Part shown: positions 7,190 to 26,475 of the stretch, in pieces
How the letters are laid out: each line of letters begins with the position of its first letter
How positions within the stretch are numbered: position 1 is the stretch's first letter
Origin: an uncultured Candidatus Saccharibacteria bacterium
GTDB lineage: Bacteria > Patescibacteriota > UBA1384 > JAMDBS01 > CAZXAY01
Assembly: GCA_964638435.1 (NCBI GenBank)
Contig: CAZXAY010000003.1
Location: forward strand, 8,431-40,430
DNA: 32,000 nt
Direction of reading: 5' to 3'
Made by a program: the position numbers and the translations under genes
The notes under the pieces: generated by a model
What the model was told of the DNA's origin: nothing
Databases searched by the model: none
Seen by the model: the letters and a program-made list of their open reading frames with translations, nothing else

Positions 7190-7221
7190 AATCATTATCA
7201 TTCTATTCTGATTATATCAAA

Positions 7222-9047: not shown

Positions 9048-9756
9048 AATTTATGACTGTCCCTACATCTTCTCCCATTGCAGCTTTAACAATATTATCT
9101 CGCCCAAATATATTAAAAACCTTAATGGGTATGTGATTCTGTTGACAAATTTTAAATGCTTCTTGATCCATCACCTTTAAATTTTGGTCTATTGCCTCTT
9201 GATAAGATAGCCTATCATATTTCTTTGCATTTTTATTAATCATTGGATCAGCACTATAAACTCCATCGACTTTAGTACCCTTTAATATCATATCACAATT
9301 TAACTCATGTGCTAAATTTGCACTGATAGTGTCTGTAGAAAACCTGGGTTTCCCCATTGCTACAGAAATTATGATTTTATTATCTTTTAAATCTTTGTTC
9401 GTTTTATCTAAATCAAACTTTTCAATTATTTCTTGGTATGAATAAAATGAAACAATCTGTGATTTTTTATTAAATCGATTTTCTAACGCATATTTTAAAA
9501 CTATTCCATTTAAAATAGTAGCATTCAGCCCTATCCAATCTGCTTCTTCTTGCTTTAAGAATGAAAGCTTATTTTCTCTGCCACGATAAATGTTTCCTCC
9601 ACCAACTACTACAATAATTTCTATCCCTTTATTGCTTATTTGCGTAATTTCTTGTGCATAGTTTAAAATCTTCCTATCATCAAAAAATTCACTCTTATCA
9701 CTTGAGGCAAACACCTCTCCTGAGAGTTTAAATAAAATTCTTTTTGATTTATCCAT
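9046..9756 (-). CDS. pyrH: UMP kinase
   Basis: ILFKLSGEV and VVGGGNIYRG amino-acid-kinase motifs, correct size, synteny with tsf and frr. Confidence 0.9.
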   Translation of the reverse strand: MDKSKRILFKLSGEVFASSDKSEFFDDRKILNYAQEITQISNKGIEIIVVVGGGNIYRGRENKLSFLKQEEADWIGLNATILNGIVLKYALENRFNKKSQIVSFYSYQEIIEKFDLDKTNKDLKDNKIIISVAMGKPRFSTDTISANLAHELNCDMILKGTKVDGVYSADPMINKNAKKYDRLSYQEAIDQNLKVMDQEAFKICQQNHIPIKVFNIFGRDNIVKAAMGEDVGTVIN

Positions 9757-10976: not shown

Positions 10977-11135
10977 TAGACTTGTTACGTAATAATTTTT
11001 GTAGCGAAAGCTAAGGATTTTGAGTGAAAATAATGAAGAGTGAGCAAGTTGTAACAGAGTTACACTGACGAACTATGAATTATTTTTTAACCAAAATTCT
11101 TAGTTTGCAGTAAAAATGTTATTTCGTAATAAGTC
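10977..11135. mobile_element. MITE-like element, copy A (159 bp), in the rpsB-tsf spacer
   Basis: About 95% identical to 19726-19914 apart from a 30-nt insertion in that copy. Imperfect terminal inverted repeats tagacttgttacgtaataa... / ...ttatttcgtaataagtc(ta). Flanked by TAA/TAA (10974-10976, 11136-11138). Confidence 0.8.
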
Positions 11136-11146
11136 TAAGGTTATAT

Positions 11147-11899: not shown

Positions 11900-11912
11900 C
11901 TTATAATCCTTA

Positions 11913-11993
11913 TTGTGTTAATCTTCACCAATCTTTTTGCACGAATTTCACGAAATATTAGTGATATTAGTGTAATGATATTAGTGGAGTTTA
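11913..11993. repeat. About 85-bp hairpin element, copy 2 (same family as 7104-7189)
   Basis: ttgtgttaatcttcaccaatc ... atattagtggagttta. Lies between the rpmE stop and the rpsB start. Confidence 0.8.
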
Positions 11994-12212: not shown

Positions 12213-12374
12213 AATAAATCTCCGATAAATCTAATTAATTTACAAATATACAAATTAAAAAATATTAGAATTTTCTCAATTCACAATTCTCGATTCACAA
12301 TTCATAATTTAATATACACTAATTATTATATTCTTGCAAGTACCCGTCGTTTTTGATATAATATGCCTAAACTA

Positions 12375-12448
12375 CCTACGAAATACGAAAGTAGCAAAAT
12401 ACTAAAATATATATTATTTCGTATTTAGTTTATTTAGTATTTAGTAGG
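12375..12448. repeat. AT-rich hairpin of the 'cctacgaaatac' word family, directly upstream of prfA
   Basis: cctacgaaatacgaaagtagcaaaatactaaaata pairs with tattatttcgtatttagtttatttagtatttagtagg. Related to 4651-4740. Confidence 0.75.
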
Positions 12449-12454: not shown

Positions 12455-13351
12455 ATGACTAAAGAAGAAATATTTACTCAGCTTAAAGAAACCAAAAATT
12501 TGCTTAAAACCACTACTGATCCTGATTTAATGCAAATGGCCCAAGAAGAGATCTCACGTCTCAAGATTTTATTGTTGCCAAAAGATACCAACGACAATCG
12601 TAATATTATTTTAGAAATCCGCGCTGGAGCAGGTGGAGACGAGGCAGAGCTTTTTGCGAGCCAGCTTTTTAGGATGTATCAAAAATATGCAGAGATTAAG
12701 GGTTGGAAAACAACACTACTCGACTCAAATATCTCGAGCCTAGGAGGAATAAAGTCATTAGTAGCAGAAATCTCTGGTGAAAATGTTTTTAAGTTTTTAA
12801 AATACGAATCTGGGGTCCATCGTGTTCAACGAGTCCCAGAAACCGAAAAATCTGGTAGGTTACACACTTCTACTGCCACTGTAGCAGTACTCCCTGTTGC
12901 CCAAGAAGTAGATCTTCAAATTAATCCCGGTGATTTAAGAATTGATACATTTTGTTCAGGCGGTCATGGTGGTCAATCTGTTAATACTACTTACTCAGCC
13001 GTTAGAATAACTCATATACCCACAAATACCGTAGTTCAATGTCAAGACGAGCGATCACAAATCAAAAATAAAGAAAAAGCTATGAGTGTGCTTCGATCAA
13101 GGTTATTGGAGAAAAAACAAGAAGATGAGCATAAATCTCGTGGCGACGCTAGACGTAATCAAATTGGTACCGGAGATCGGTCAGAAAAAATAAGAACTTA
13201 TAACTTTCCACAAGATCGCATCACCGACCATCGCATTCAAAAATCTTGGGGTAATATCGAAGCTATTATAGATGGTAATATACAAAAAATCCCTTTGTCT
13301 CTTATTGAAGAAGACCAAAAACGTCAGCTAGAAGAAATAATGTCTAATTAA
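12455..13351 (+). CDS. prfA: Peptide chain release factor 1 (N-terminally short)
   Basis: GGQ loop [28 protein letters not shown] carries an RF1-type PxT tripeptide (PET), not the RF2 SPF. It is the only convincing plus-strand gene. Confidence 0.87.
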
Positions 13352-15089: not shown

Positions 15090-16652
15090 TTAAACTTTTA
15101 ACTTATTATTAAGTATCTCATTTACAACTTGTGGATTAGCTTGCCCCTTACTCTCCTTCATCACGCATCCAACTAAAAATCCTACAATTTGAGTTTGACC
15201 GCCTTTTATTTTAGCCACCACGTCAGGATTTTTACTAATAACTTTCTCCACAATTTTTTCTAACTCACCAATATCAGAAATTTGTTCTAAACCTCTTTCT
15301 TTAATAATCTCTGATGGTTTTTTACCTTTATACAACTCTGACAAAATTTCTTTAGCTACTGATTTAGAAATTTTTCCAACTTTAATAGTACAAATAAGTT
15401 CTACAAACCATGCTGGGTTAATAGAAAAATCTTTGATATCGTTAATTATCCAAACAGCTAATTCAACTTTTGAATCGTCTGATATTAAATTTGCACATTT
15501 ATCAAATAATTTTGATCGCTCGCTATCAGATATAATCAAATTAGCATCAATTTTATTTAAACCAAATTTATTTTGATATCTATCTAAAACCTCTTCAACA
15601 GTCTCTGGTAATTGCTTAATAATCTCATTTATATTAATTATGTTTTTAGTTTTGAATTTTGGATTTTGGATTTGTTTAGAATTTAGAGTTTCGTGCTTAG
15701 AGTTTCCACCAATTACTACTGGTGGAAGATCTGGTTCCGGAAAATACCTATAATCAGCACTAGTTTCTTTAACTCGCATTATATAGGTTTTGTTTTTTAC
15801 CTCATCCCAACCGCGGGTTTCTTGAACAATTTTACCACCATTTTCAATCTCATCAATTTGTCGCTCAAGCTCAAATTCAATCGCCTTTTCAACTGATTTA
15901 AATGAATTAAGATTCTTAACCTCAACTTTAGTCCCAAATTCCTTTTGCCCTATTGGTTTAACGGAAATATTCGCTTCGCAACGCATTTGTCCCTTTTCCA
16001 TATCAGCGTCTGATACATCAAGCTTGCGAAGTCGCAATTGATAGCTCTGGCAAAACAATTTAGCAATTCTACCAGCCTCATCAATTGGCAAAGTTACAGC
16101 GTCCGTGACCAATTCCATTAGCGGTACGCCAGCCCTATTATAATCCATCAATGAGTAATCTACATCTGCCCTACCCTCCGGGTGTTTGCTTGTCCCAGTA
16201 TCTTCTTCCAAATGAATTCTGGTTATTCCAAAAGTTATTAGTTTTTCGTTTTCAGTTTTTAGTTTGAGCAAACCGCCAGTAACAATTGGTAAATCATATT
16301 GAGATATCTGATATCCTTTTGGTAAGTCTGGATAAAAATAGTTTTTTCGATCCCATTTAGTAAAGGTAGCAATATTGTCGGCTTTTTTATTATTTAAATA
16401 TAATCCAGTTTTTATGGTCATTTCAATCGCCTGTTTATTAAGTACAGGCAACATTCCAGGCATTCCCAAACACACCGGACAAATATTCATATTTTGTTCA
16501 GTTGGTTTAGATTCGCGTCTATTCGTGTTTTCATTCGGCATTATTCGTGTTGTGCTATTTGCACACGAGCAGAACATCTTTGACTGTGTTTTAAGCTCTG
16601 CATGAATCTCCAGCCCAATCACCGCTTCATATTTTTGATTGCTTTTTTTCAT
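15090..16652 (-). CDS. gatB: Asp/Glu-tRNA(Asn/Gln) amidotransferase subunit B
   Basis: YEAVIGLEIHAELKT, GMPGMLPVLN, RIHLEEDTG, YRYFPEPDLPP, C-terminal YqeY-like domain. Confidence 0.93.
   Translation of the reverse strand: MKKSNQKYEAVIGLEIHAELKTQSKMFCSCANSTTRIMPNENTNRRESKPTEQNMNICPVCLGMPGMLPVLNKQAIEMTIKTGLYLNNKKADNIATFTKWDRKNYFYPDLPKGYQISQYDLPIVTGGLLKLKTENEKLITFGITRIHLEEDTGTSKHPEGRADVDYSLMDYNRAGVPLMELVTDAVTLPIDEAGRIAKLFCQSYQLRLRKLDVSDADMEKGQMRCEANISVKPIGQKEFGTKVEVKNLNSFKSVEKAIEFELERQIDEIENGGKIVQETRGWDEVKNKTYIMRVKETSADYRYFPEPDLPPVVIGGNSKHETLNSKQIQNPKFKTKNIININEIIKQLPETVEEVLDRYQNKFGLNKIDANLIISDSERSKLFDKCANLISDDSKVELAVWIINDIKDFSINPAWFVELICTIKVGKISKSVAKEILSELYKGKKPSEIIKERGLEQISDIGELEKIVEKVISKNPDVVAKIKGGQTQIVGFLVGCVMKESKGQANPQVVNEILNNKLKV
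15642..15704. repeat. In-frame AT-word module inside gatB (encodes NSKHETLNSKQIQNPKFKTKN)
   Basis: gtttttagttttgaattttggattttggatttgtttagaatttagagtttcgtgcttagagtt. Shares the tttagaatttaga and ggattttggattt words with gatA 28495-28533. Confidence 0.75.
16510..16550. repeat. In-frame 'attcgtgtt' word module inside gatB (encodes TRIMPNENTNRRES)
   Basis: gattcgcgtctattcgtgttttcattcggcattattcgtgt. The same cacgaat/attcgtg words occur in the intergenic hairpins at 7104-7189 and 11913-11993. Confidence 0.6.
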
Positions 16653-16804: not shown

Positions 16805-19399
16805 CTATATTTGATAAATACTGTTAATATTAGTACCCGTTGTAATGGTAAAACTAAAATTGACTCTATGAGCGTCCTTTAAATATCTCTTTAAATAATT
16901 AGCAATTTTTTCGCGATTGCTTAAAGCATGATAACTACCTTCTTGACCGGTAATATAAACCCCTGCTAAATTATTATCTTGCTGAAACTTTTTGGCAATC
17001 TCTAGCACTGACTCACAAAAAGCACCGGCATCAATTTTATCTAACCAATCCACATTGGGATTAAATCCCCGCAATAGTAGCGCCTTTTGTCCATTGATTT
17101 TTACAATATAAGCCTGGATATTAGCTCGCACGGATTGTTCATTCTCCACAATATTAATATGCAAATGATCATTTCTGTTAAATAGATTAGCATCCGAAGC
17201 AGTGCAAACTCCCGCTGAGGCTTTGGCGAAAAATGAACCAATATTTTTAGAAAAATATGCTTTTAATCCGCTAGTGGTAGTAACTACTTTTTCGCCTATA
17301 TCACTTTTTTCAAATTTATTAATTTCTTGGCTAATTTTTTCTCTATAAGATTTTAATACTTTTTCAAAAAGTACCTTGCCAAAAAGTTTGGCCATCCCCT
17401 CAATGGTATTTATTGACTGCCAGTCGATTTTCTCTTTTTCACTGCCAAATAATTTTTTTATTGCTTGCTGTCTCTTCGGAGTATTTAACAGTTCCTGTAT
17501 TTCTTTTGTTAAAATATCATTTCCTAGCAAATAATTTTTTAAAGCTGTTTGATAATTATCTTTAAAATATACTCCTAATATTTCTTTTAATTCCATAAGA
17601 TAGTTGTAGCTGTTTTGATTATCTAATTTGGAGTATCTTAAAATAAAATTTGTTACTAAATCATCTTGACTAATTAAACTAAGCAATTCTCCTAGTTCTG
17701 TTAGATTAAAATCCGTTTTGGACTTGGCTAAACCTAATAATAATTTATCCCATTCGATTTTAGGATTAGATTCTTGCGAATTTTCCCGCAAAAATAATTG
17801 TTTAAAGGAATTAAGAACATTAAAATCTGTTGTTTTATTTTCTTTTAATCTAAGTGATTTGTGGCTAGTTATTGTTAAAGGGTAACCTTCTTTGGGAAAA
17901 ATGTAATTTTTTATATCTCCAGTTTTATCCTCGAGTTGATCAATCATTTTTTTTACTTGCTCAAAACTCATCCCTATTGGTTTGTATGCTGAATAAACCA
18001 TTTCAACTAGAATATCCTCGTCCTTGGCAGGTAGTATATTTTTTATAGGTTCATTCTGAAAGAATTTGGGTTTTAATTGCCTAATTTGAGCGGATAATTC
18101 ACTTTTACCAGCATGGTCGGCATGACGATAACGATCAAAGATTATTGGCGTTAATGAATCTAAGTCAGTAAGGGCTTGAAAAATTTCTTGTTGATTACCC
18201 AGTACTGAGTAATCCGTCAATCTTGTATCGCACAAAGTATCAATAACAGTATTAAACTGATTAGGATATTCGGCAATTAATTTTCTTAAAAAGGGCAAAT
18301 GATTATCATCGCCAAGGAATTTTTGTAAATTGCTTGTCAAAAAATTCTTGTTGATTAAATTTAAACAAAAATATCTAAAAAATCGAGCGGGTATCTCTTT
18401 TTTACCCAAAAATTTCATAACCAAGCTACTACCTTTAGCGCTATCAATTTCTGCCAATTCTTTGATTATACGCGCCTCAAAAGAAATCTTTTTGAGATGT
18501 TTTTCTAAATCTTTTTCACTTGCTAGACCTTGAAAACCTAATTTCTGCAATAATTTAATGCTGTCATCTGATTCGATATGCTTTAAAGTTTCACATAATA
18601 ATTTAACAGTGGGTTTATCAACAGCAAATTGTAAATTAACAGCTTTTCCCAAATCTCTTGACGCTCTATCTTGCACTAATAGTTGTTGCCATTTATCTTT
18701 TTCATTAATGTATTTTTCTTTTAAAAACGGTGCTAATTCATGATCCATAATTATTGAGGCCATCTGTCTCTGATTTTCAGGCATTAAGTTGATAAAATCC
18801 TCTCTCTTATTTTCGTCTAAAACTAAAGCGTAGTTTTTTAATAAATCTGGATCACTTGCAACCGAGCTGGCAATTTTTTCCATTGCTGGCATTGGCATTT
18901 TTTCAGTTTCCCTTTTTTGGATTCCTAAAATCATTGCCTCCGCAAGCATACTTGAGGGATTAAATTTAGGTATCCCAGATGCCTGGTCAAGCATTTTTTT
19001 AGCGTAATTTATCGTTTCGCCGAAATTTAACTCCGCCAATTGCTCATGCTTAGCAACATCCGCCAATAAATAGGCGCTTAAATTTGGTGCCACATCTGCC
19101 ATTAACATTGCCTTTTGGCGATTTTTTTCACCCTTTTCATTCAAATAATTTTGTGCCTCTTCTTTGGTGACAACTACATTCCCATCGACCTCATTTTTAA
19201 CTAACGCCAAAGTTTCGTGATATTTATTTTTTAAACTTTCTAATTCAGGTGGTGGCAAGTTTAAAACTAATATTTTTAGTTCCTGTGATTTTTTTCTTAA
19301 ATCAGCCATCATAAAAATCATTGATTTTTCATCACTAGATAAAAATTGCGCTTGTTGATTTTCTATATTTTGATTATTGTTAATAAATTCATTCATCAT
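16805..19399 (-). CDS. Large hypothetical protein (864 aa), no recognisable domain
   Basis: Long uninterrupted ORF. Its ATGATG start overlaps the TGA stop of the RT remnant (ATGATGAATGA, 19389-19399). Mostly helical-looking, Lys/Glu/Leu-rich. The C-terminal 160 aa are more globular (GVCTASD...LLLRGFNP...ITGQEGSYHALSNR). Confidence 0.7.
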   Translation of the reverse strand: MMNEFINNNQNIENQQAQFLSSDEKSMIFMMADLRKKSQELKILVLNLPPPELESLKNKYHETLALVKNEVDGNVVVTKEEAQNYLNEKGEKNRQKAMLMADVAPNLSAYLLADVAKHEQLAELNFGETINYAKKMLDQASGIPKFNPSSMLAEAMILGIQKRETEKMPMPAMEKIASSVASDPDLLKNYALVLDENKREDFINLMPENQRQMASIIMDHELAPFLKEKYINEKDKWQQLLVQDRASRDLGKAVNLQFAVDKPTVKLLCETLKHIESDDSIKLLQKLGFQGLASEKDLEKHLKKISFEARIIKELAEIDSAKGSSLVMKFLGKKEIPARFFRYFCLNLINKNFLTSNLQKFLGDDNHLPFLRKLIAEYPNQFNTVIDTLCDTRLTDYSVLGNQQEIFQALTDLDSLTPIIFDRYRHADHAGKSELSAQIRQLKPKFFQNEPIKNILPAKDEDILVEMVYSAYKPIGMSFEQVKKMIDQLEDKTGDIKNYIFPKEGYPLTITSHKSLRLKENKTTDFNVLNSFKQLFLRENSQESNPKIEWDKLLLGLAKSKTDFNLTELGELLSLISQDDLVTNFILRYSKLDNQNSYNYLMELKEILGVYFKDNYQTALKNYLLGNDILTKEIQELLNTPKRQQAIKKLFGSEKEKIDWQSINTIEGMAKLFGKVLFEKVLKSYREKISQEINKFEKSDIGEKVVTTTSGLKAYFSKNIGSFFAKASAGVCTASDANLFNRNDHLHINIVENEQSVRANIQAYIVKINGQKALLLRGFNPNVDWLDKIDAGAFCESVLEIAKKFQQDNNLAGVYITGQEGSYHALSNREKIANYLKRYLKDAHRVNFSFTITTGTNINSIYQI

Positions 19400-20140
19400 C
19401 TAATACCTCCATTATTTCCCAGCTAAATTCATTTAATTTATGCTTGGAATGTTGTTTTATTAAACCATAATAACTTGACGCATTATTTATGTTTAGCCTG
19501 CTCTTAATCCTTTTTAAATTTCGTTTGTTCAAACTCCTTTTATCTGGGTATATTACAACTCCTAAAAATTTTATTCCGCGCCTAGCTTTAACTATAATGT
19601 CATTTTTTAAATTAATCTTTAAAAGTAAACTATTTTCTATAAACCTAATTGTATTTTCTCGTATTTCTTCTAATTTAGCAAGATCCTTATCTAAAATTAT
19701 AAAATCATCTCCATAGCGCAAATATTAGACTTGTTACGTAATAATTTTTGTAGCGAAAGCTAAGAATTTTGAGCCCGCCTTGACTCGGATCAGGCGAGGC
19801 AGGTGAAAATAATGAAGAGCGAGGAAGTTGTAACAGAGTTACGCTGACGAACTATGAATTATTTTTTAACCAAAATTATTAGTTTGTAGTAAAAATGTTA
19901 TTTCGTAATAAGTCTATTGTTTTATTTTTAATTTATGTTTAATAAACCTGTCTAACTCGTTCAAATAAATATTGGCAAAAATCTAACTAGTTAGGTTGCC
20001 AATTGGCAAGCCCTTTCTATTAAGACCCCCCCCCAATGTCTGTTGAATTGTCATTCTGAGCTTGCGAAGAATCTCTATTATAACCATCAATAACAAAATT
20101 GATTATCTTTTTAACATTTGGACAATCAACTCGTCTAAAA
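19389..20140 (-). pseudogene. DGR-type reverse transcriptase, decayed (5'-truncated, frameshifted, nonsense codon, split by MITE)
   Basis: My minus-strand translation gives ...RRVDCPNVKKIINFVIDGYNRDSSQAQNDNSTDIGGG (frameshift in the G9 run) LNRKGLPIGNLTS*IFANIYLNELDRFIKHKLKIKQ | MITE | YLRYGDDFIILDKDL...FLGVVIYPD...SSYYGLIKQHSKHKL. This covers RT motif 4 with the DGR-typical IGxxxSQ (Q codon is TAG here), motif 5 YGDD, and motifs 6-7. Confidence 0.8.
19726..19914. mobile_element. MITE-like element, copy B (189 bp), inserted in the RT gene, carrying a nested 30-nt GC hairpin (19774-19803)
   Basis: Same termini as copy A, flanked by TAT/TAT (19723-19725, 19915-19917). Deleting 19726-19917 (192 nt) joins ...KHKLKIKQ to YLRYGDDF in frame. 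Confidence 0.85.
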
Positions 20141-20161
20141 ATAAAATAATAAAATTAAAGA

Positions 20162-21283
20162 TTAAAGTCCAATGGTTTGTGGTAACATTACCGAGGAGCG
20201 AACGCCGGAGCCGGAAACGCCGAGATTGTCCCCGCTCAAATCAGCCTGACAGCCGTAGCGATCCCAACGGCAGACCGGCGCCCCACCGGAAACCAAAGAA
20301 GCTATTAAATAACAAGCTCTTGCTTGATCATCTATTTGCTGGTTAGTTTGTTGTAAATGAATAATTGCATAAATTAACCAATCTTGGATAACTAAACCCA
20401 TTTCATTAGCATATTGGGGATCTTCTTGAAGTTTTTTCAGATAATCTATTGGTGATTGGTTGGCTTCCAATTGTTTCCTTGCCTGACCTGAGCTATGTCG
20501 AAGGGTTTTACCCTGACCCTTTGCTGGTAAGTCTGGCAAATTTTCTATCAGTTTAATAGACCAGCCATTAGTGGGCTTAACTTTGTTAAGATACGCTTGA
20601 TATTGTTTATTCTTTTCTTTAGTAATTCCAGTAAGAAGCTCATTAAGGGTAAAACCTTTAAAGCTTGGATCAGTAAAGTCTTTGGGGTAATAGGTCATTT
20701 TAGTATTGCCATCTTGGTCTTCTTGATCACAATTAAGGTATCCATCCCAAATAAAGATTGGATCAAATTTAGTAGAATCATTATCATCTTCTTTGAGTTC
20801 TAAGGACGAGCCATCTGTAGATAGGAGTTTACCTTCTTTATGTTTTTTAATGATTAACTGTTTGTATCTTGATATTAGTATTTCCAGTGGTAGAACCATA
20901 GGAGTAAGAAGCAATTTAGTAAATCCTTGAGATTCTTTAAGTTCAAGTATTTGCAGTTGTTCGGGGGTGATTTGGGAAAGGATTTCTTCATAGGTGGGAA
21001 TAGGATATTCTTTGATTTTAGTACTGTCATGGGGGTCAACTCCAAGAACACCAATATCTTGGCAGTCTAGGAGTATGTCAATAACTCCTGTTTCATTAAG
21101 AGTTTTAACTTGGGACTCCCATTGAACTTTAAGCTGGAGCTTTTCTGAAAGAGCTTCTAGTTTAACTTGATGCTCAGTTTTTTCTGGAGTATCAGTAAGG
21201 CTGAGATCCTTCGCTCCACTAAGACTAACATCGGGTTGAGTTTCTTGAGCTTGATTAAATTGTTGGGGTAATTGTTCGGACAT
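20162..21283 (-). CDS. Candidate DGR variable protein, paralog A (373 aa)
   Basis: Paralogous to 22752..23816 over most of its length. The C-terminal ~40 codons are GC-rich, A-poor and hyperdivergent, ending in a conserved VMLPQT. The stop lies about 20 nt from the RT remnant. Confidence 0.75.
   Translation of the reverse strand: MSEQLPQQFNQAQETQPDVSLSGAKDLSLTDTPEKTEHQVKLEALSEKLQLKVQWESQVKTLNETGVIDILLDCQDIGVLGVDPHDSTKIKEYPIPTYEEILSQITPEQLQILELKESQGFTKLLLTPMVLPLEILISRYKQLIIKKHKEGKLLSTDGSSLELKEDDNDSTKFDPIFIWDGYLNCDQEDQDGNTKMTYYPKDFTDPSFKGFTLNELLTGITKEKNKQYQAYLNKVKPTNGWSIKLIENLPDLPAKGQGKTLRHSSGQARKQLEANQSPIDYLKKLQEDPQYANEMGLVIQDWLIYAIIHLQQTNQQIDDQARACYLIASLVSGGAPVCRWDRYGCQADLSGDNLGVSGSGVRSSVMLPQTIGL
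20193..20311 (-). other. Putative variable region (VR) of paralog A
   Basis: Roughly two-thirds G+C by eye, in a ~30% GC genome. In the 75-nt core, A is the rarest coding-strand base (8/75 by my count). Bounded 3' by a block identical to paralog B (ggtttgtggtaacattacc, 20174-20192). Confidence 0.6.
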
Positions 21284-21287: not shown

Positions 21288-21974
21288 TTATTTTGAATTT
21301 AATTTTAATAAAAATAACAGTTCTGGAATTAGTTGATCTTTTATCCAAATTTTTTGTTTACTATCAACAACCTCACCCAAACTATGTAAAATGTTGATAT
21401 TTGATTTTTTTTCTAACAACTTTATGATTTCTTTTAAATACTCTTTAGTATTTTTACCTGTTCTCAATTTTATAATATTTTCATTAATAGGCCAATTATT
21501 TTTTAAGAAAAAATATACATCAAACAAATCTCGGTTAGCGAGTTTTTTCCTATCCAATACGGCTACCAATTTATTAGCAAAAATACAATCTTTTGTCATA
21601 GTTAAAATTGGCAATCCTAAATAATTTTTTATCTCAAAAGTATTTTCATTAATCAATCTTGTAGAAATTTCTATCTTAATATTATGGGCCTCATTTTTGT
21701 ATGACAATAAAAAGTAAATCGTATTAGCTTTTATTTTTTTGTCCTTTATTTCTCCAATGTCTACTAAAATTCCTAATAACTTTTTGAATACAAAATCGAC
21801 TCTGTCTAACTGCGACAAATTAAAATCTAAGTCGGTAGAAAACCTAGGTAAGTTATAAAAAAGATAACAAGCCGTCCCGCCTTTAAAACCTAAAATTGGC
21901 GCTAGATCTCTATCAGAATAAATAGCATATAATATTTTGCTTAACACTACTTCATGTTCCTTTTTATCAAGCAT
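21288..21974 (-). CDS. AbiEii-family nucleotidyltransferase toxin (pair 1)
   Basis: GFKGGTACYLFYNLPRFSTDLDFN signature. Overlaps the upstream AbiEi-like gene by 8 nt. Paralog of 25203..25913. Confidence 0.8.
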   Translation of the reverse strand: MLDKKEHEVVLSKILYAIYSDRDLAPILGFKGGTACYLFYNLPRFSTDLDFNLSQLDRVDFVFKKLLGILVDIGEIKDKKIKANTIYFLLSYKNEAHNIKIEISTRLINENTFEIKNYLGLPILTMTKDCIFANKLVAVLDRKKLANRDLFDVYFFLKNNWPINENIIKLRTGKNTKEYLKEIIKLLEKKSNINILHSLGEVVDSKQKIWIKDQLIPELLFLLKLNSK

Positions 21975-22554
21975 ATAATTTCCTTAATTTAGCTAATTTT
22001 TTTTCTAAACTCTTATTATCATAAATTTTAACTATTTCACTGCAAATCTGCCAATCAATTTTTGCCAAATTGTCAAAATAAAAATCACCATATAGGTATA
22101 GGGTGTCGAGCAAGGCTCTCTCACAAGACGCAACATCATAATTCTCCTTTCTTACAATTCCACTTGAATTTAATAATACTGAATCTTTGATTTTTTTATA
22201 AACATATTTTTGTTTATCAATTATAATTTCTTTTGATAATTTAGAAATAGAATAAATTGCGCTATCATATTGGAATATTATTCCCGCCCTTAATAAAACA
22301 GTTTGTAAACTAATATATGATGGAATAATTATTTTATTTGCAAGTTCATCTTTTAAATAATTACTATCAATTGCATACAATCCATTTCTTACTCTATTTA
22401 GTTGGCCATTTTTGACTAACCGATATATTTTAGTTTTTAAATAATTTGGCTCAGGTATTTGCCAAATTAAAATTAGGTCTTTAGTACTAAAAACCGTTTT
22501 TTTACTTTTTAACAGTAGTGTTATAGAATTATCTATCATATGTTTGTATCTCAT
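21967..22554 (-). CDS. AbiEi-family antitoxin/transcriptional regulator (pair 1); true start probably the ATG at 22539
   Basis: N-terminal wHTH-like region (TKDLILIWQ...YRLVKNGQLNRVRNGLY), C-terminal ...CERALLDTLYL. Aligns with pair 2 from MIDNS. Confidence 0.75.
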   Translation of the reverse strand: MRYKHMIDNSITLLLKSKKTVFSTKDLILIWQIPEPNYLKTKIYRLVKNGQLNRVRNGLYAIDSNYLKDELANKIIIPSYISLQTVLLRAGIIFQYDSAIYSISKLSKEIIIDKQKYVYKKIKDSVLLNSSGIVRKENYDVASCERALLDTLYLYGDFYFDNLAKIDWQICSEIVKIYDNKSLEKKLAKLRKLYA

Positions 22555-22556
22555 AA

Positions 22557-22574
22557 GTAATCATATTTGATTAC
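22557..22574. promoter_or_regulatory. Inverted repeat gtaatca-tatt-tgattac upstream of AbiEi pair 1 (candidate operator)
   Basis: Perfect 7-bp arms. The consensus AAGTAATnATATTTGnTTAC is shared with the repeat upstream of pair 2 (26492-26516). Confidence 0.55.
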
Positions 22575-22751
22575 ATTTATATTATACATCCTAATAAATA
22601 TACTTGCAACTTTTGGCACCTCGCCCCACTTGTCCCGCGTAGCTTTATGCGAAGTGGGAAGACGGGTTTATTTACCAAATTATTCAATTGAAAAAAAATC
22701 TTTTTTAAAGTTCAAAATTAAAGGTTAAATATTAAAATCAAAATTCAAAGT

Positions 22752-23816
22752 TCAATTGGTTTGTGGTAACATTACCACGGGACGGGAACCGCAGTCCCCG
22801 TACGAGAAGTCAGGGAAGTCTCCGTACAAGTCCGCCCGACGGTTGTCGCGACTCCAATAGTAGCGCAGCACTTTGCCAGCTAGGTATGATCCAGTTAACC
22901 AACAAGCTTTCCCTTTGCTTCGCCAGTCATCTATTTGCTGATTGGTTTCTTGTAATTGGGTAATAGCGTAAATGAGCCAACTTTCTAAGGTTAAACCTTG
23001 TTCGTGGGTATATTGTGGGTCTGTTTGGAGTTGGTTTAGATAATCTATTGGGGTTTGGTTGGCTTCTAATTGTTTTCTTTCATTAAGGGTTTTGCCTTGG
23101 TTTTGGGCAGGTAAATCAGGGTTGTCTTCGATAAATAGTATTTGCCAACCATTAGTGGATTTAAGCTTATCAAGTCTTAGTTGATGTTGGTGATTATTAG
23201 CTTTTCCTGATATTAATTCTGATTTAACAAAGCCTTGGTGATTATCTTTATCAAATTGCTCTGGATAGTAAATTAGTCTGCCATCAGTGTCAGCATTCTT
23301 AATATCATCCCAAACATAGACTGGGTCAAATTTAGTAGAATCATTATCATCTTTTTTGAGTTCTAAAGACGAGCCATCAGTAGCTAAGAGTTTACCTTCT
23401 TGATGTTTTTTAATGAGTAATTGCTTGTATCTATCGATTAAGGTTTCAAGGTGCGCGCCAATTGGAACTAGTAGCATTTTAGTAAAGCCTTGTTCTTGTT
23501 TAGTTTCTAATACTTTAAGTTGTTCTGGGGTAATTTTAGATAAGATTTCTTCATAGGTGGAAATAGGATATTCTTTGATTTTAGTACTGTCATGGGGGTC
23601 AACTCCAATAACACCAATATCTTGGCAGTCTAGGAGTATGTCAATAACTCCTGTTTCATTAAGAGTTTTAACTTGGGACTCCCATTGAACTTTAAGCTGG
23701 AGCTTTTCTGAAAGAGCTTCAAGACGTAGGAGGTGTTCAGATTCTCTTGTTTCGGTGTTAGTCTGAGATAAGTCTGGGTCAGTCGGTATTAAGTTGTAAG
23801 GCAATTGTTCTGGCAT
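22752..23816 (-). CDS. Candidate DGR variable protein, paralog B (354 aa)
   Basis: Same family as 20162..21283, with a GC-rich hypervariable C-terminus ...LRYYWSRDNRRADLYGDFPDFSYGDCGSRPVVMLPQTN. The W...RA...P...G(x)RPVV pattern resembles C-type-lectin/FGE-type DGR VR scaffolds. Confidence 0.75.
   Translation of the reverse strand: MPEQLPYNLIPTDPDLSQTNTETRESEHLLRLEALSEKLQLKVQWESQVKTLNETGVIDILLDCQDIGVIGVDPHDSTKIKEYPISTYEEILSKITPEQLKVLETKQEQGFTKMLLVPIGAHLETLIDRYKQLLIKKHQEGKLLATDGSSLELKKDDNDSTKFDPVYVWDDIKNADTDGRLIYYPEQFDKDNHQGFVKSELISGKANNHQHQLRLDKLKSTNGWQILFIEDNPDLPAQNQGKTLNERKQLEANQTPIDYLNQLQTDPQYTHEQGLTLESWLIYAITQLQETNQQIDDWRSKGKACWLTGSYLAGKVLRYYWSRDNRRADLYGDFPDFSYGDCGSRPVVMLPQTN
22777..22901 (-). 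other. Putative variable region (VR) of paralog B
   Basis: GC-rich, with 14/75 A on the coding strand in the core. Bounded 3' by the identical block ggtttgtggtaacattacc (22758-22776). Confidence 0.6.
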
Positions 23817-23820: not shown

Positions 23821-25095
23821 TTATTTTAGATTTAATAACCACTTATAAGTTGGCAAAACTTTTATTGTTTTATTGTTAATATTAATTATTTTTTCTTTAT
23901 CAGTTGTTAATATTATACTACTTTTAAGATCTAGCTCATCCATTGCTTGAATTAATGCCTTTATTTCTCTTTCTCTCGTATCGGTTTTTTCGATACTTTC
24001 ACAAACCTGAATTAATTCTATTATATCCCTTCCTTTTCTAATAACAAAATCAACTTCTAAATTATTTTTTGTTTTATAGTAATAAATTGAGTCGCCTCGC
24101 CGCTTAAGCTCAATAAAAACCATATTTTCCAAAAATTTTCCACTATTTTTAGAAAAACTAAATGAAATGGCGTCAGCAAGCCCGTTATCAATTGAATATA
24201 TCTTTTTAGGCGCAATAAATTGTTGTGAAACTTTATAAGAAAAAATATTCACTGTAAAAAATAAGTAACTATTTTCAAAATAATCTGTATAGCTTTTTAC
24301 CGTATTAACACTACCCAATTTTAAAATTTCTTTTAATTTATTAAAGGAAGTTAAGTTTCCCAGGTTACTAAAATAATATAACGCTAATTCGCGAAGTGAT
24401 TTTACTTCCTGAACATCATAACGAGTTACAATGTCACGATACAAAATATCTTCGTAAATTCTTTTTAAAATATCTTTATTTTCAAACTTTAAATATTCTG
24501 GTAATCCACCAGATTTTAAATATTGGTTGAAATATGATTTTAATTTTGCTCTTTCTTTAGTATAAGATGTGGCATTACTTGGTACTATATATCCCTTAAA
24601 ATCAAGATATTCTCTAAAAGAAAACGGATATAGTTCATAAGGAATATATCGACCCGTTAATTTTGTGCCCAACTCACGACTCAACATTGAGGCATTGGAG
24701 CCTGTTAAGTAAAATTTGAAACCTTTATCCTGCATTCTTCTAACAAAATTTTCCCAACCAATAATATTTTGAATTTCATCAAAAAAGAAAACTGTTTTTT
24801 CTCCAAACAATTCTAACAATATTTCATATAACTTATTAAAATCTTCTTTTTGAAAATTAATTAATCGTTCATCCTCAAAATTAAAATAATAACACTTGTT
24901 CTTATAAAATTTATTCATTATCTGCATTAATAATGTTGATTTACCCACTCTTCTTAAGCCAGAAATAACGATACTATGTGGAATTTTCAATGATTCCTCT
25001 AATTTAAGCATTGTATCTCTTTCAATCCCCACATCTTTTTTTTCTAAATCTTTGGCTTGCTCCATGATTATTTCTTTAAGTAAATTTAAATCCAT
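23821..25095 (-). CDS. AAA-type ATPase with DUF4143-like C-terminus
   Basis: Walker A GLRRVGKST, Walker B FFFDEIQ, 424 aa. Architecture typical of the COG1373-type 'ATP-binding protein'. Confidence 0.8.
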   Translation of the reverse strand: MDLNLLKEIIMEQAKDLEKKDVGIERDTMLKLEESLKIPHSIVISGLRRVGKSTLLMQIMNKFYKNKCYYFNFEDERLINFQKEDFNKLYEILLELFGEKTVFFFDEIQNIIGWENFVRRMQDKGFKFYLTGSNASMLSRELGTKLTGRYIPYELYPFSFREYLDFKGYIVPSNATSYTKERAKLKSYFNQYLKSGGLPEYLKFENKDILKRIYEDILYRDIVTRYDVQEVKSLRELALYYFSNLGNLTSFNKLKEILKLGSVNTVKSYTDYFENSYLFFTVNIFSYKVSQQFIAPKKIYSIDNGLADAISFSFSKNSGKFLENMVFIELKRRGDSIYYYKTKNNLEVDFVIRKGRDIIELIQVCESIEKTDTREREIKALIQAMDELDLKSSIILTTDKEKIININNKTIKVLPTYKWLLNLK

Positions 25096-25202: not shown

Positions 25203-25913
25203 TTATTTAATAACTGATTGATAATTTTTAAGCATAAAAACTGTTTCTAATTTTAATTTATTTTTAACCCAAATTTTTTCTTTTTCACCTAATAGCTCTC
25301 CAAGTCCTTGTAAAATTTGATTATTTTCTATCTTTTCTATCTCAACAATACAATCAGATAAATAGTTTTTAATGTTTTTCCCTGTTCTATTCTTGATTAT
25401 TTCAAGGTCGATATCCCAACTATTTTTGCTAAAATAATAGATATCATAAACATCACGCGTAACCACTCTACTTCGTTGAGTTAATGCCACTAGTTTACTA
25501 GCAAAAAGATAGTTTTTTTTAGCAATTAACATTGAAATACCAAGATATTCTTTTAATTCATAATGATCTCTAATATTTTTGATAAGTTTTCTAATATTAA
25601 TTTCAATCTTAATATTGTGATCACCATCACCATAGGAAAGAAGAAAAAAAATAGTATATCTTTCTATTCGCTGGTCTTTTACTTCGCCATATTTTTTTAA
25701 AATAGCTAATATCTTTTTAAATAATATCTCGACAATTAATTTATCAGCAGTTAGTAAATCAAAATCTAAATCCACTGAAAATCGTGGTAAATTATAGAAA
25801 AAATAGGCGCAGGTACCGCCCTTAAACCCTAAATACGATGAAATAGACATATCACTATAAATGTCCTTTAATATTTGACCCATAATTAATTGGTGATTTT
25901 CTTTATTTAACAT
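25203..25913 (-). CDS. AbiEii-family nucleotidyltransferase toxin (pair 2)
   Basis: GFKGGTCAYFFYNLPRFSVDLDFD signature. Overlaps the upstream antitoxin gene by 11 nt. Confidence 0.8.
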   Translation of the reverse strand: MLNKENHQLIMGQILKDIYSDMSISSYLGFKGGTCAYFFYNLPRFSVDLDFDLLTADKLIVEILFKKILAILKKYGEVKDQRIERYTIFFLLSYGDGDHNIKIEINIRKLIKNIRDHYELKEYLGISMLIAKKNYLFASKLVALTQRSRVVTRDVYDIYYFSKNSWDIDLEIIKNRTGKNIKNYLSDCIVEIEKIENNQILQGLGELLGEKEKIWVKNKLKLETVFMLKNYQSVIK

Positions 25914-26475
25914 AGTTTTGATGATATTTATTTAAACGTTTAATTAATTGTTGATTATCATAAATCTTAACTAATTCAAAACATTTTTGCCAATCAAGTG
26001 GTTGGAGATTGTCAAAATAGTATTCATCAAAAAGGTAAAGCGTATCCAAAAAAGCTCTTTCTGGTGATGCGATGCTATAGTTACCTTGATTAATTATTCC
26101 ATTTGAATTATATAATAAGTTATTTTTTAGTTTTCTAAAATTAATAGAATGCTTATCAACAATTATCGTTTTTGACCAAGGACCGACAACAAAAATTGTA
26201 TCATAATGTTGAAAGATAATGCCAGCCCCTCGCAAAACAGTTTCGAAACTAATATATGATGGGATATAAATACTTGTGGCTAATTCTTTGGAATCATAAT
26301 TTCTGTCTTTAGCAAATATGCCTCTAGTAAGTCTGATTAACAAACCTTTTTTTATGTAATAGTAAATTTTAGCTTTCAAATTTTTCGAATTAGTTTCTTG
26401 CCAAATTAAAGCTAGATCTTTATTAGTCAAGATTGTTTTGGGATTCTGATAGAGTTTAGCAATTAGATTATCCAT
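25903..26475 (-). CDS. AbiEi-family antitoxin/transcriptional regulator (pair 2)
   Basis: Paralog of 21967..22554 (NKDLALIWQ..., ...PERAFLDTLYL). Confidence 0.75.
   Translation of the reverse strand: MDNLIAKLYQNPKTILTNKDLALIWQETNSKNLKAKIYYYIKKGLLIRLTRGIFAKDRNYDSKELATSIYIPSYISFETVLRGAGIIFQHYDTIFVVGPWSKTIIVDKHSINFRKLKNNLLYNSNGIINQGNYSIASPERAFLDTLYLFDEYYFDNLQPLDWQKCFELVKIYDNQQLIKRLNKYHQNYVK

What the first reader, a model, noticed from the sequence alone, without database searches (positions are those of the whole stretch)
19389..20140. A DGR-type reverse transcriptase with four independent lesions
The minus strand encodes RT motif 4 as GLPIGNLTS*IFANIYLNELDRF and motif 5 as YLRYGDDFIIL, followed by a ...FLGVVIYPD... 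/ SSYYGLIKQH tail. The I-G-x-x-x-S-Q signature in motif 4 distinguishes diversity-generating retroelement RTs from group II intron and retron RTs. The gene appears to be dead four times over. (a) Motifs 1-3 are missing: homology starts about 20 nt after the stop of the upstream gene. (b) A run of nine G (C9 on the plus strand, 20026-20034) puts the upstream part out of frame; G8 or G11 would restore it. (c) The diagnostic Q codon is TAG (19988-19990), one transition from CAG. (d) A 189-bp MITE separates motifs 4 and 5.
Basis: partly seen in the sequence, partly recalled or inferred. Interest (0 to 1): 0.8.

Follow-up and report, generated by a model that had tools for sequence, protein, structure and literature searches.

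The report
Dead DGR reverse transcriptase with repeat-switch fossil
This is the broken remnant of a diversity-generating retroelement in a Candidatus Berkelbacteria chromosome, and its run of nine G's is an inherited simple-repeat tract that, in many intact relatives of this enzyme, shifts the reverse-transcriptase gene in and out of frame.

Summary
Window 19389-20136 (minus strand) encodes the 3' ~55% of a DGR-type reverse transcriptase (RT), from just after motif 3 to the stop.

It has three genuine lesions:
- A deletion removed the template repeat (TR), avd and about 150 RT codons.
- The invariant Q of IGNLTSQ is TAG.
- A 191-nt MITE (19726-19916) sits between motifs 4 and 5. A second copy lies at 10977-11137.

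The fourth "lesion", the G9 run, is not independent decay. The syntenic orthologue L195 has an otherwise intact RT with G8 at the same site, also out of frame.

Across 81 non-redundant CPR-type DGR RT loci:
- 31 carry a simple-sequence repeat (SSR) in this loop: (AG)4-16, (CT)22, (AC)10, G8-13 or (GACA)n.
- All 10 frame-split genes are split there; none of the 50 genes without a repeat is split.
- Both halves of the split genes stay intact, with dN/dS about 0.1.
- Most still have adenine-specific TR/VR pairs.
- Only 2 of 73 viral DGR RTs have such a repeat.

The window's DGR is dead, and geneA's variable region (VR) is frozen at 8% A. The repeat tract looks like a phase-variation switch on the RT, which I did not find described in the paper library I searched. 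No reads were available, so within-population switching is untested.

The parts
19389..20136 (-). Remnant of a CPR-type DGR reverse transcriptase gene. It runs from after motif 3 to the stop codon and is interrupted by a G9 tract, a TAG and a MITE.
20137..20161 (-). Deletion scar. The 3' flank of geneA, which is still alignable with geneB's 3' flank, abuts RT codon ~150. TR, avd and the RT 5' half (roughly 1.1-1.3 kb in relatives) are missing.
20080..20136 (-). RT helix segment RRVDCPNVKKIINFVIDGY, in the upstream frame. It is homologous to RRVSDPKALNLMREVIQSY in P0017 and KRKITCCKTLEILGKIIDSY in L195.
20026..20034 (-). G9 simple-sequence tract in the loop before motif 4. G8 would be in frame. 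It is orthologous to the G8 tract of L195 and is the only G/C homopolymer of 6 or more in the window.
19983..20012 (-). RT motif 4, GLPIGNLTS*. The invariant Gln codon is mutated to TAG at 19983-19985.
19726..19916 (.). 191-nt MITE with terminal inverted repeats, inserted between RT motifs 4 and 5. Excising 192 nt restores the spacing seen in relatives.
10977..11137 (.). Second copy of the same MITE: 90-96% identical, with a 30-nt internal deletion, between tsf and rpsB.
19389..19721 (-). Residual 110-aa ORF (motif 5 YLRYGDDF through the thumb domain). It is annotated in GenBank as hypothetical protein ACD_58C00036G0001. Its stop overlaps the start of the 864-aa gene.
20162..21283 (-). geneA, a DGR target-family protein. 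Its C-terminal variable region at ~20196-20299 is 7.7% A, against 37.5% A in the gene body. It is now frozen.
22752..23816 (-). geneB, a paralogous target-family protein with a VR-like C-terminus at ~22771-22889 (17.6% A). Its match to the orthologous TR is weaker.
16805..19399 (-). 864-aa protein of unknown function. Its family lies directly downstream of the RT in many CPR DGR cassettes and in the syntenic orthologue L195.

Best explanation
The window carries the fossil of a chromosomal diversity-generating retroelement of the Patescibacteria/CPR type, in Candidatus Berkelbacteria ACD58.

Ancestral cassette (shown by synteny with relatives and the orthologue L195): target gene with a C-terminal VR, then TR, then avd on the opposite strand, then the RT, then an ~865-aa protein, all next to gatB.

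Three events killed it:
1. A deletion of roughly 1.1-1.3 kb, starting about 25 nt after the geneA stop, removed TR, avd and RT codons 1 to ~150.
2. A C-to-T change turned the invariant Gln of motif 4 (IGNLTSQ) into TAG.
3. A 191-nt MITE inserted between motifs 4 and 5.

With no TR and no RT, geneA's adenine-depleted VR is frozen.

The G9 run is different in kind. It is an inherited simple-sequence tract at a loop where this RT clade characteristically carries poly-G, (AG)n, (CT)n, (AC)n or tetranucleotide repeats.

Inferred: in living copies, slipped-strand length changes at this tract move the catalytic half of the RT in and out of frame. That would act as a stochastic ON/OFF (contingency) switch on the mutagenic enzyme. 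In the window only the tract survives, one G longer than its in-frame length.
For: DGR identity:
- Best PDB match is 8ub7 at E 2e-15, with the alignment starting exactly at GLPIGN.
- There are 1410 database relatives at E <= 1e-10.
- Motif GPIGNLTSQ is invariant in 43 full-length relatives.
- Relatives have bAvd next to the RT.
- Relatives have TR/VR pairs in which 816 of 883 mismatches (ON loci) are at TR adenines.

Synteny:
- The geneA/B family lies directly upstream and the 864-aa family directly downstream of the RT in many loci.
- L195 has avd, RT, an 865-aa gene, gatB, htrA, RF, L31 and S2 in the window's order.

Loss:
- No TR-like copy of either VR exists in the window.
- No RT N-half or Avd exists in the window.

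Frozen VR:
- Against L195's TR, geneA's VR is mismatched at 21 of 29 TR adenines but only 22 of 74 other bases (Fisher p = 1.2e-4).
- The VR is 7.7% A.

MITE:
- It has terminal inverted repeats and a second copy.
- An independent assembly, L196, is 100% identical to the window and ends 27 nt inside it.

G tract inherited:
- L195 has G8 at the same site in an intact two-half RT that is out of frame by one nucleotide; G9 would read CVGGGLERKGIAIGN.

Clade-wide repeat:
- 31 of 81 non-redundant loci have an SSR in the loop.
- All 10 out-of-frame genes have one there, and 0 of 50 genes without one are out of frame. Five are shifted +1 and five -1.
- SSR density is 3.6 per kb at the loop against 0.09 per kb elsewhere in the same loci.
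- In one subclade the tract is (AG)4, 6, 7, 9, 10 or 16, or G8, between conserved flanks. It is in frame only at n = 6 or 7.
- In a sample not biased by frame there are 45 full-length and 59 split relatives, interspersed on a tree.
- Both halves of split genes are intact.
- dN/dS for OFF-OFF pairs is 0.05-0.17, the same as ON-ON pairs.
- Only 2 of 73 viral DGR RTs have an SSR there.
Against: - No read-level data were available, so tract-length heterogeneity within a population (the defining property of phase variation) is untested.
- In two lineages the same OFF length, (GA)5 or (GA)4, is fixed in every one of 9-10 contigs from different samples. It also stays constant across strain variants that differ elsewhere. 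Short tracts therefore do not switch fast.
- No pair of near-identical RT genes with different tract lengths was found.
- OFF loci carry somewhat more non-adenine TR/VR mismatches (17% against 8%, driven by L168). Some OFF copies may truly be decaying.
- dS is near saturation, so dN/dS mostly reflects older history.
- The 80 metagenome loci were ranked by full-length match and under-sample split genes.
- For the window itself, the order of the lesions is unknown. Whether the tract was ON or OFF when the gene died is also unknown.
Confidence: 0.8

Rival explanations
1. All four defects, including the G9 run, are independent decay mutations in a pseudogene, and the homopolymer is simply a frameshift that happened after the gene died.
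For: The gene is certainly dead. In the window the tract is one G off the in-frame length.
Against: The orthologue L195 has a G8 tract at the identical position in an RT whose two halves are both intact. A G/C run of 9 or more is expected 0.005 times in this window, and no other run of 6 or more exists. 31 of 81 clade members carry a repeat at this loop.
Confidence: 0.05
2. The repeat is a neutral mutational hotspot. The loop before motif 4 tolerates insertions, simple repeats expand there without selection, and frame-shifted alleles are freshly dead DGRs on their way to deletion. On this view there is no switch function.
For: The loop varies widely in length and sequence, with motif 3 to motif 4 distances of 117-189 nt. 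OFF loci show more non-adenine TR/VR mismatches (17% against 8%). OFF lengths are fixed in sampled populations. L191 has a second lesion in its N-half. The window shows that such DGRs do die.
Against: SSRs are 39-fold enriched at the loop relative to flanking DNA, including intergenic DNA. At least five different repeat motifs occur at the same site. Only 2 of 73 viral DGR RTs have one there, although they have the same loop. More than half of sampled alleles are OFF, yet both halves remain full-length with dN/dS about 0.1. Several OFF loci have perfectly clean adenine-only TR/VR pairs (L178 24/24, L165 15/15). Length change at such tracts is mechanistically reversible whether or not it is selected.
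Confidence: 0.25
3. Frame-split alleles are expressed anyway. This could happen by transcriptional slippage or ribosomal frameshifting on the repeat. It could also happen as a two-piece enzyme, with the C-terminal half initiating at the Met of G-M-PIGN. On this view the DNA-level 'OFF' state is not off.
For: Met occupies that position in 8 of 10 OFF alleles but only 15 of 71 ON alleles. 41 of the 120 closest relatives are ORFs starting exactly at M-PIGNLTS. The N-half ORF stops within about 20 nt before to 50 nt after that ATG. One subclade is about 88% OFF, more than the 67% expected from random tract length. Purifying selection persists.
Against: Shifts of +1 and -1 are equally common and there is no shared slippery motif, which argues against programmed ribosomal frameshifting. 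From my own knowledge, (AG)n is a poor Shine-Dalgarno match. The Met enrichment is confounded by phylogeny and by gene callers needing a start codon. Split alleles without that Met exist (P0002/L195, P0027, P0065). I know of no precedent for an RT split between motifs 3 and 4.
Confidence: 0.15
4. Assembly or sequencing artefact. The homopolymer length, the TAG, or the join next to geneA are errors, and the real gene is less damaged.
For: Homopolymers are error-prone, and the window comes from an early metagenome assembly. The independent assembly L196 covers only 18649-19751, so it does not reach the tract, the TAG or the deletion junction.
Against: The MITE is flanked on both sides by consecutive RT sequence with exact codon spacing, so that join is real. 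L196 confirms the 3' part and the MITE edge at 100% identity. There is no repeat at 20137 that could cause a chimeric join. In relatives the same out-of-frame tract lengths recur in up to 10 independent assemblies (also L001-L003).
Confidence: 0.05

Closest known systems
Bordetella phage BPP-1 DGR (bRT, Avd, TR, mtd); PDB 8ub7 is the bRT entry (identity of the entry from my own knowledge)
   Same: The same RT clade signature: GxPIGxLTSQ...ANxY and YxRYxDD. It is the best solved-structure match, E 2e-15. Relatives use an Avd partner and adenine-specific TR-to-VR mutagenesis.
   Different: The window copy lacks TR, avd and RT motifs 1-3. In the CPR type, avd is on the opposite strand between TR and the RT, and a large (~865-aa) conserved gene follows the RT. 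bRT is not reported to carry a repeat tract before motif 4.
Patescibacteria/CPR DGRs ('DGR clade 2' of Roux et al. 2021, PMC8144416; the CPR set of Wu et al. 2018, PMC5758913)
   Same: The same organisms, chromosomal location, usually a single target, and target proteins without recognisable domains. The window's RT remnant is 50-66% identical to members.
   Different: The passages of those surveys that I searched mention neither a repeat tract in the RT gene nor recurrent frame-splitting at one site. The window's copy is a remnant.
Sporadically inactivated DGR RTs (Schillinger et al. 2012, PMC3521204, Fig. 4: nonsense mutation, IS insertion, frameshift)
   Same: The window shows the same kinds of lesion: a nonsense codon and a mobile-element insertion. 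Its VR also outlives the RT.
   Different: Those were isolated cases with TR/VR still present. Here TR is gone, and the apparent frameshift sits in a clade-wide repeat tract.
Simple-sequence contingency loci, such as poly-G tracts in Campylobacter and Neisseria and (AG)n/(CT)n tracts in Helicobacter (own knowledge; see also PMC4081817 and PMC6625227 listed)
   Same: An intragenic poly-G or dinucleotide tract that is rare for the genome's composition. Unit number differs among relatives, both +1 and -1 OFF states occur, and the gene is otherwise intact and under purifying selection.
   Different: Classical contingency loci mostly encode surface structures or restriction-modification enzymes. 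Here the switched gene would be the enzyme of another hypermutation system. Switching within a population has not been shown.

Membership tests
Diversity-generating retroelement (DGR) | An RT of the DGR clade with the motif-4 signature [ILV]GxxxSQ. | tested here: met
   The window reads GLPIGNLTS(TAG). The Q is invariant in 43 relatives. The best PDB hit is 8ub7. Non-DGR RTs read QGxxxSP. The SQ signature is described in PMC3521204.
Diversity-generating retroelement (DGR) | A TR/VR repeat pair whose mismatches fall at TR adenines. | tested here: not met
   No TR-like copy of either VR exists in 32 kb. Relatives have such pairs. The orthologous TR from L195 matches geneA's VR with an adenine bias, p = 1.2e-4.
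Diversity-generating retroelement (DGR) | An intact RT open reading frame (motifs 1-7). | tested here: not met
   Motifs 1-3 are absent from the window. There is a TAG at the invariant Q and a MITE between motifs 4 and 5.
Diversity-generating retroelement (DGR) | An accessory Avd gene next to the RT (typical, not universal). | tested here: not met
   There is no Avd by Pfam or tblastn in the window. It is present in L195 and other relatives.
Diversity-generating retroelement (DGR) | A target protein with its VR at the C-terminus of a C-type-lectin (or Ig) fold. | tested here: inconclusive
   Homologues of geneA/B carry the VR at the same place in active cassettes. The AF2 model of geneB has pLDDT 93.5, but all PDB matches have E > 0.1. 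Many of the weak local hits are CLec-fold proteins: Mtd, TvpA, FGE, EgtB.
SSR-mediated phase-variable (contingency) gene | A simple-sequence tract inside the coding region that is unexpected for the genome's composition. | tested here: met
   G9 is the only G/C run of 6 or more in the window; the expected count is 0.005. There is a 39-fold SSR enrichment at this loop across the clade.
SSR-mediated phase-variable (contingency) gene | Tract length differs among related alleles and sets the reading frame, while the gene is otherwise intact. | tested here: met
   G8 in L195 against G9 in the window. (AG)4-16 in one subclade. All 10 frame-split genes are split at the tract. Both halves are intact with dN/dS about 0.1. 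This is met in relatives only; the window copy is not intact.
SSR-mediated phase-variable (contingency) gene | Reversible length heterogeneity within one population. | not testable with these tools
   No reads were available. Consensus assemblies of two lineages show one fixed OFF length. No near-identical pair with different tract lengths was found.
Programmed ribosomal frameshift site | One conserved shift direction and a conserved slippery/stimulator motif. | tested here: not met
   Five +1 and five -1 cases, with different repeat motifs.
MITE (non-autonomous DNA transposon) | Short, no ORF, terminal inverted repeats, multiple copies, target-site duplication. | tested here: met
   It is 191 nt with terminal inverted repeats (TIRs) and two copies in the window. 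An independent assembly breaks inside it. The target-site duplication is ambiguous: 1 nt, or TA.

The most novel reading that the evidence does not exclude
CPR/Patescibacteria DGR reverse-transcriptase genes carry a selected, hypermutable simple-sequence tract just upstream of catalytic motif 4. The tract would act as a stochastic ON/OFF switch for the whole diversity generator, so that one hypermutation device (a contingency locus) gates another (mutagenic retrohoming). Most natural alleles sit in the OFF frame yet are kept intact by selection. The window's G9 is a fossil of that switch. A more radical variant of this reading is that OFF alleles work as a two-piece RT, with the C-terminal half initiating at the Met of G-M-PIGN.
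Probability: 0.5. Interest if true: 0.8.

Novelty: new variant of a known kind. Interest (0 to 1): 0.6.

Why it matters
On its own, the window's element is an ordinary dead DGR. It is useful mainly as a dated example of how these cassettes decay: loss of TR, avd and the RT 5' half, a nonsense codon and a MITE insertion. A frozen, adenine-depleted variable region remains in a still-open target gene.

The wider point is the tract. How DGR activity is regulated is largely unknown, and uncontrolled mutagenic retrohoming should be costly for organisms with ~1-Mb genomes. A repeat that flips the RT in and out of frame would give CPR bacteria population-level bet-hedging: a few cells diversify their target protein while the rest keep a working allele.

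There are also practical consequences:
- Surveys that require an intact RT ORF will miss or misclassify roughly half of this clade.
- Estimates of 'inactive' DGRs may confound OFF with dead.
- Gene callers systematically annotate these RTs as two ORFs, a ~180-aa piece and a 144-aa piece.

The hypothesis can be tested directly with existing metagenomic reads.

Tried and rejected
1. Scan of the window for a TR, treating TR adenines as wildcards: only self-matches.
2. Genome-collection scan with the single protein P0003. The pattern DIEKFFDN pulled in group II/retron-like RTs (L009-L087) with QGxxxSP motifs. Only L008 was a close DGR RT. I first mislabelled these loci as distant DGR RTs and corrected that.
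3. NCBIfam and PADLOC have no DGR RT model. The best hits (group II RT 58.9 bits against a cut-off of 300; RT_UG26 58 bits) are uninformative.
4. Programmed frameshift. I looked for a prfB-like context (G-run, then TCT TAA in the window; GAG TAA A in L168/L178). Shift directions and motifs are inconsistent across loci.
5. dN/dS between split alleles is clearly below 1, but dS is near or beyond saturation, so it cannot date the frame shifts.
6. Search for near-identical RT pairs with different tract lengths: none found. The L168-L177 and L178-L186 contig sets are identical at the tract.
7. The 405-aa against 422-aa difference in the gene downstream of the RT in L168/L171 is a 51-nt in-frame indel in a proline-rich repeat. 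It is not an SSR frameshift.
8. Promoter and terminator scan of the remnant: at chance level.
9. The RF gene at 12455-13351 was checked for a programmed frameshift: nothing.
10. Fold search of the target protein: no significant PDB match.
11. Literature searches for phase variation, SSRs or frameshifts in DGR RT genes found only sporadic inactivation cases.
12. I misread the TAG coordinate and corrected it.

Full report
**1. What is in the sequence**

Reading the minus strand from the stop of the upstream gene (geneA, 20162-21283) gives the following:
- 25 nt of spacer.
- RRVDCPNVKKIINFVIDGY (20136-20080) and a loop, in one frame.
- A run of nine G (20034-20026).
- In the +1 frame, LNRKGLPIGNLTS-TAG (motif 4, 20012-19983; the TAG is at 19985-19983).
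- IFANIYLNELDRF...KLKIKQ.
- A 191-nt element (19916-19726).
- YLRYGDDFIIL (motif 5, 19724-19692), FLGVVIYPD, SSYYGLIKQH and the stop codon at 19391-19389.

The inserted element is 191 nt rather than 189.

Deleting one G, changing TAG to CAG and excising 192 nt gives a continuous 190-aa product. That product:
- Passes Pfam RVT_1 (34.4 bits, cut-off 29.6).
- Has as its best solved-structure match the 328-aa RT of PDB 8ub7, E 2e-15, with the alignment starting exactly at GLPIGN. The next best hits, group II and retron-type RTs, are at 2.8e-10 or worse. I recognise 8ub7 as the Bordetella phage DGR bRT from my own knowledge.
- Finds 1410 relatives at E <= 1e-10 in the large protein collection.

The window's own 110-aa ORF is GenBank protein ACD_58C00036G0001. 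ACD58 is the lineage later named Candidatus Berkelbacteria (PMC13293708).

**2. Is it a DGR RT?**

Yes.
- In an alignment of 43 full-length relatives, G-P-I-G-N-L-T-S-Q and Y-R-Y-G-D-D are invariant.
- The SQ signature of DGR RTs is described by Schillinger et al. 2012 (PMC3521204).
- RTs of other classes, which I fetched by accident, read G-x-x-Q-G-x-x-x-S-P at the same place.
- Relatives lie next to bAvd genes.
- In 48 in-frame loci with a detectable repeat pair, 816 of 883 TR/VR mismatches are at TR adenines.
- Roux et al. 2021 place Patescibacteria DGRs in their 'clade 2' (PMC8144416).

**3. Context and what was lost**

The window is chromosomal. Genes gap, tpi, an M50 protease, frr, pyrH, tsf, rpsB, an RF, htrA and gatB lie on one side, and gatA on the other.

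The island between gatB and gatA holds:
- The 864-aa ORF and the RT remnant.
- geneA, an AbiEi/AbiEii pair, and geneB (a paralogue of geneA).
- A PDC-S01-type ATPase.
- A second AbiE pair and a Fic/RhuM protein.

In relatives, the geneA/B family lies directly upstream of the cassette and the 864-aa family directly downstream.

The best comparator is L195. It is the contig encoding P0002, the closest relative of the window's RT (64% identity). Its gene order is avd(-), RT, an 865-aa gene, gatB, DUF5654, htrA, RF(-), L31, S2, the same as the window's. Its first ~125 nt are an AAC-rich template repeat.

The window has no TR-like copy of either VR. It also has no RT N-half and no Avd.

geneA's 3' flank is still alignable with geneB's for ~35 nt and then abuts RT codon ~150. 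So one deletion, of roughly 1.1-1.3 kb judging from relatives, removed TR, avd and RT motifs 1-3.

geneA's C-terminal ~104 nt are 7.7% A, against 37.5% in the rest of the gene. Against L195's TR they are mismatched at 21 of 29 adenines but only 22 of 74 other positions (Fisher p = 1.2e-4). This is a genuine variable region, now frozen. geneB's VR-like end gives a weaker signal (16/31 against 32/87, p = 0.2).

**4. The MITE and the TAG**

The MITE:
- It has terminal inverted repeats (TAGACTTGTTACG / CGTAATAAGTCTA).
- A second copy at 10977-11137 is 90-96% identical with a 30-nt internal deletion.
- Excising 192 nt restores K-L-K-I-K-Q-Y-L-R-Y-G-D-D, exactly the spacing of relatives (P0062: KLKIKAYLRYGDD).
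- The target-site duplication is ambiguous: a single nucleotide, or TA. The TA option would imply a pre-existing in-frame TAA.
- An independent assembly of SRR446575 (L196) is 100% identical to window 18649-19751 and ends 27 nt inside the element, as expected for a multi-copy repeat.

The TAG: it ends 4 of 25 long ORFs in the window (TAA 19, TGA 2), so the genetic code is standard and the TAG at the invariant Gln is a true nonsense codon.

**5. The G9 run is not a decay lesion**

*First hint.* Forty-one of the 120 closest relatives are ~144-aa proteins starting exactly at the Met of G-M-PIGNLTSQ, many on long contigs. In total, 59 are split or short and 45 are full-length. The query was the C-terminal part only, so this sample is not biased by frame.

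*DNA of relatives.* The N-half and C-half are both present but in different frames, with the junction at a simple repeat in the loop before motif 4:
- G8 in L001-L003, and (AG)4 in L004.
- (GA)5 in L168-L177, and (GA)4 in L178-L186.
- (AG)10 in L188, (AG)16 in L191, and (AG)9 in L192-L194.
- One extra unit restores reads such as QRERTFIGMPIGN, matching intact relatives (QRERAFIGMP in P0017; RERERESK... in others).

*In-frame relatives carry repeats at the same site too:* (AG)4-13, (CT)22, (AC)10, G10, G13 and (GACA)n.

*Numbers for 81 non-redundant loci:*
- 31 have an SSR in the loop.
- All 10 out-of-frame genes have one there.
- None of the 50 genes without a repeat is out of frame.
- Five are shifted +1 and five -1.
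- Nine of the ten have no internal stop in either half.

*Controls:*
- SSR density is 3.6 per kb at the loop against 0.09 per kb in the remaining 347 kb of the same loci, and the loop repeats are far longer.
- Only 2 of 73 non-redundant viral DGR RT loci have a repeat there. One of them, L197, is the hit closest to this clade and carries (CAGA)23.

*The window's own orthologue settles the local question.* L195 has G8 at the same codon position, between homologous flanks. Its N-half is full-length with no internal stop and its C-half is a complete ORF (P0002). It is out of frame by one nucleotide; G9 would read CVGGGLERKGIAIGN. In the window, the in-frame length is G8 (GGG GGG GGT CTT = GGGL). 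The tract was therefore inherited as a tract. Being one G off says nothing about decay.

**6. What the tract does in living copies (inference)**

*Split genes are not old pseudogenes:*
- Their N-halves run uninterrupted from the start Met to the tract in 13 of 14 loci examined. The exception is L191.
- dN/dS for OFF-OFF pairs is 0.05-0.17 in both halves, the same as ON-ON pairs (0.13-0.19). dS is near saturation.
- Split and intact alleles are interspersed on a tree. For example, intact P0050/L190 with (AG)7 sits among split alleles with the same C-terminal tail.
- Several split loci keep perfectly adenine-specific TR/VR pairs (L178 24/24, L165 15/15).

I conclude that slipped-strand length change at this tract most likely toggles RT translation, giving a contingency-type switch. 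Length change at such tracts is mechanistically reversible whether or not it is selected. The occurrence of at least five unrelated repeat motifs at one loop, and their near absence from phage DGR RTs with the same loop, argue that the repeat itself is selected.

*Caveats:*
- No reads were available, so heterogeneity within a population is untested.
- Two lineages show one fixed OFF length in 9-10 assemblies each. The tract stays constant across strain variants that differ by a 51-nt indel elsewhere.
- No near-identical pair with different tract lengths was found.
- OFF loci have more non-adenine TR/VR mismatches (24/141 against 67/883, mostly from L168), so some OFF copies are probably decaying.
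- The 80 metagenome loci were ranked in a way that favours intact genes.

*Rival readings:*
- A neutral hotspot in a permissive loop.
- Expression despite the shift, either by slippage or as a two-piece enzyme initiating at the Met of G-M-PIGN. That Met is present in 8 of 10 OFF alleles but 15 of 71 ON alleles, though this is confounded by phylogeny and by gene-caller behaviour.
- A single programmed ribosomal frameshift, which is unlikely because both shift directions and many motifs occur.

**7. Comparison with what is known**

Dead DGR RTs with a nonsense codon, an IS insertion or a frameshift have been described as isolated cases (PMC3521204).

Full-text searches of the held library, and targeted reading of the two large surveys (PMC5758913, PMC8144416), found no description of a repeat tract or recurrent frame-splitting in DGR RT genes. 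Paul et al. 2017 is not in the searchable library, so I could not check it.

Both ingredients are well known: the DGR, and the SSR contingency locus. Their combination, with the repeat gating the mutagenic enzyme itself, would be a new variant.

**8. Verdict**

The finding is real. It is a DGR RT and it is dead, by three lesions rather than four.

On its own it is an ordinary remnant. The interest lies in what the fourth 'lesion' revealed: a clade-wide repeat tract at which about half of the sampled CPR-type DGR RT genes are frame-split while otherwise conserved.

My confidence levels:
- About 0.95 that this is a dead DGR remnant.
- About 0.9 that the G tract was inherited.
- About 0.5 that the tract works as a selected ON/OFF switch.

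**9. Target protein**

Sixty-eight relatives have no Pfam domain. An AlphaFold2 model of geneB is confident (pLDDT 93.5, pTM 0.91) but has no significant PDB match. The weak local hits are dominated by C-type-lectin-fold proteins, including the DGR targets Mtd and TvpA. That fits a CLec-type VR scaffold but does not prove it.

Noticed in passing
window 16805-19399 (minus); L178 2919-5435; L195 1458-4055; L005 6974-10060: A large protein (864-1028 aa) with no Pfam, NCBIfam, PHROG or PADLOC match lies directly downstream of the RT in many CPR DGR cassettes. In the window its start overlaps the RT stop (ATGATGA), with a GGAGG 8 nt upstream. It may be an unrecognised DGR-associated gene.
   Followed up: partly
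window 22752-23816 (geneB) and 20162-21283 (geneA): The target-family protein gives a very confident AF2 model (pLDDT 93.5) with no significant PDB fold match. Only weak local hits to CLec-fold proteins (Mtd, TvpA, FGE, EgtB) appear at the C-terminus. The N-terminal two-thirds may be a new fold.
   Followed up: partly
window 21288-23816 and 25203-26475; also 1155-1766: The AbiEi/AbiEii toxin-antitoxin pair is duplicated within the island. One copy sits between the two DGR target paralogues, and a third AbiEii-like ORF lies at 1155-1766.
   Followed up: no
window 23821-25095 (minus): An AAA_14/DUF4143 ATPase matches the PADLOC candidate defence family PDC-S01 at E = 4e-119. The neighbourhood (AbiE pairs, Fic/RhuM at 26700-27689) looks like a defence island between gatB and gatA.
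   Followed up: no
window 1011-1158: A perfect tandem duplication of a 74-nt unit (2.0 copies, 100% identity) immediately downstream of the AbiEii-like ORF at 1155-1766.
   Followed up: no
L155 4092 (G10); L157 4087 (G11) and 313 (G9); L147 2832 (G9): Further long poly-G tracts lie within ~100-250 nt downstream of the RT gene end in some relatives. Neighbouring genes may therefore carry repeat tracts as well.
   Followed up: no
L168 versus L171/L173, ~1600-1680 nt downstream of RT motif 4: Near-identical strain variants differ by a 51-nt in-frame indel in a proline-rich repeat of the gene after the RT (405 aa against 422 aa), while the RT (GA)5 tract is unchanged.
   Followed up: yes
G-x-PIGN position of RT genes, loci L001-L195: Met occupies the residue before PIGN in 8 of 10 frame-split alleles but only 15 of 71 in-frame alleles. 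This is compatible with internal initiation of the C-terminal half, but is confounded by phylogeny and gene-caller bias.
   Followed up: partly
P0017, residues ~158-178: A full-length relative has a 20-aa insertion (GMPVRSYLPDRALAAAGTKAGMP) that duplicates the GMP just before motif 4. This is another kind of length change in the same loop.
   Followed up: no
window 7098-7201 and 11911-11993; 4633-4745 and 12357-12448; 3521-3551, 8992-9052, 16233-16265, 28189-28220: Other repeated short elements: a ~100-nt palindromic repeat in two places, an AATACGAAA/TACTAAA-rich repeat in two places (at least one copy intergenic), and TTTTAGT heptamer arrays at several sites.
   Followed up: no
L009-L087: The genome-collection scan with a single RT protein returned mostly group II/retron-like RTs (motif 4 QGxxxSP), not DGR RTs. 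They are useful only as a contrast for the IGxxxSQ signature.
   Followed up: yes
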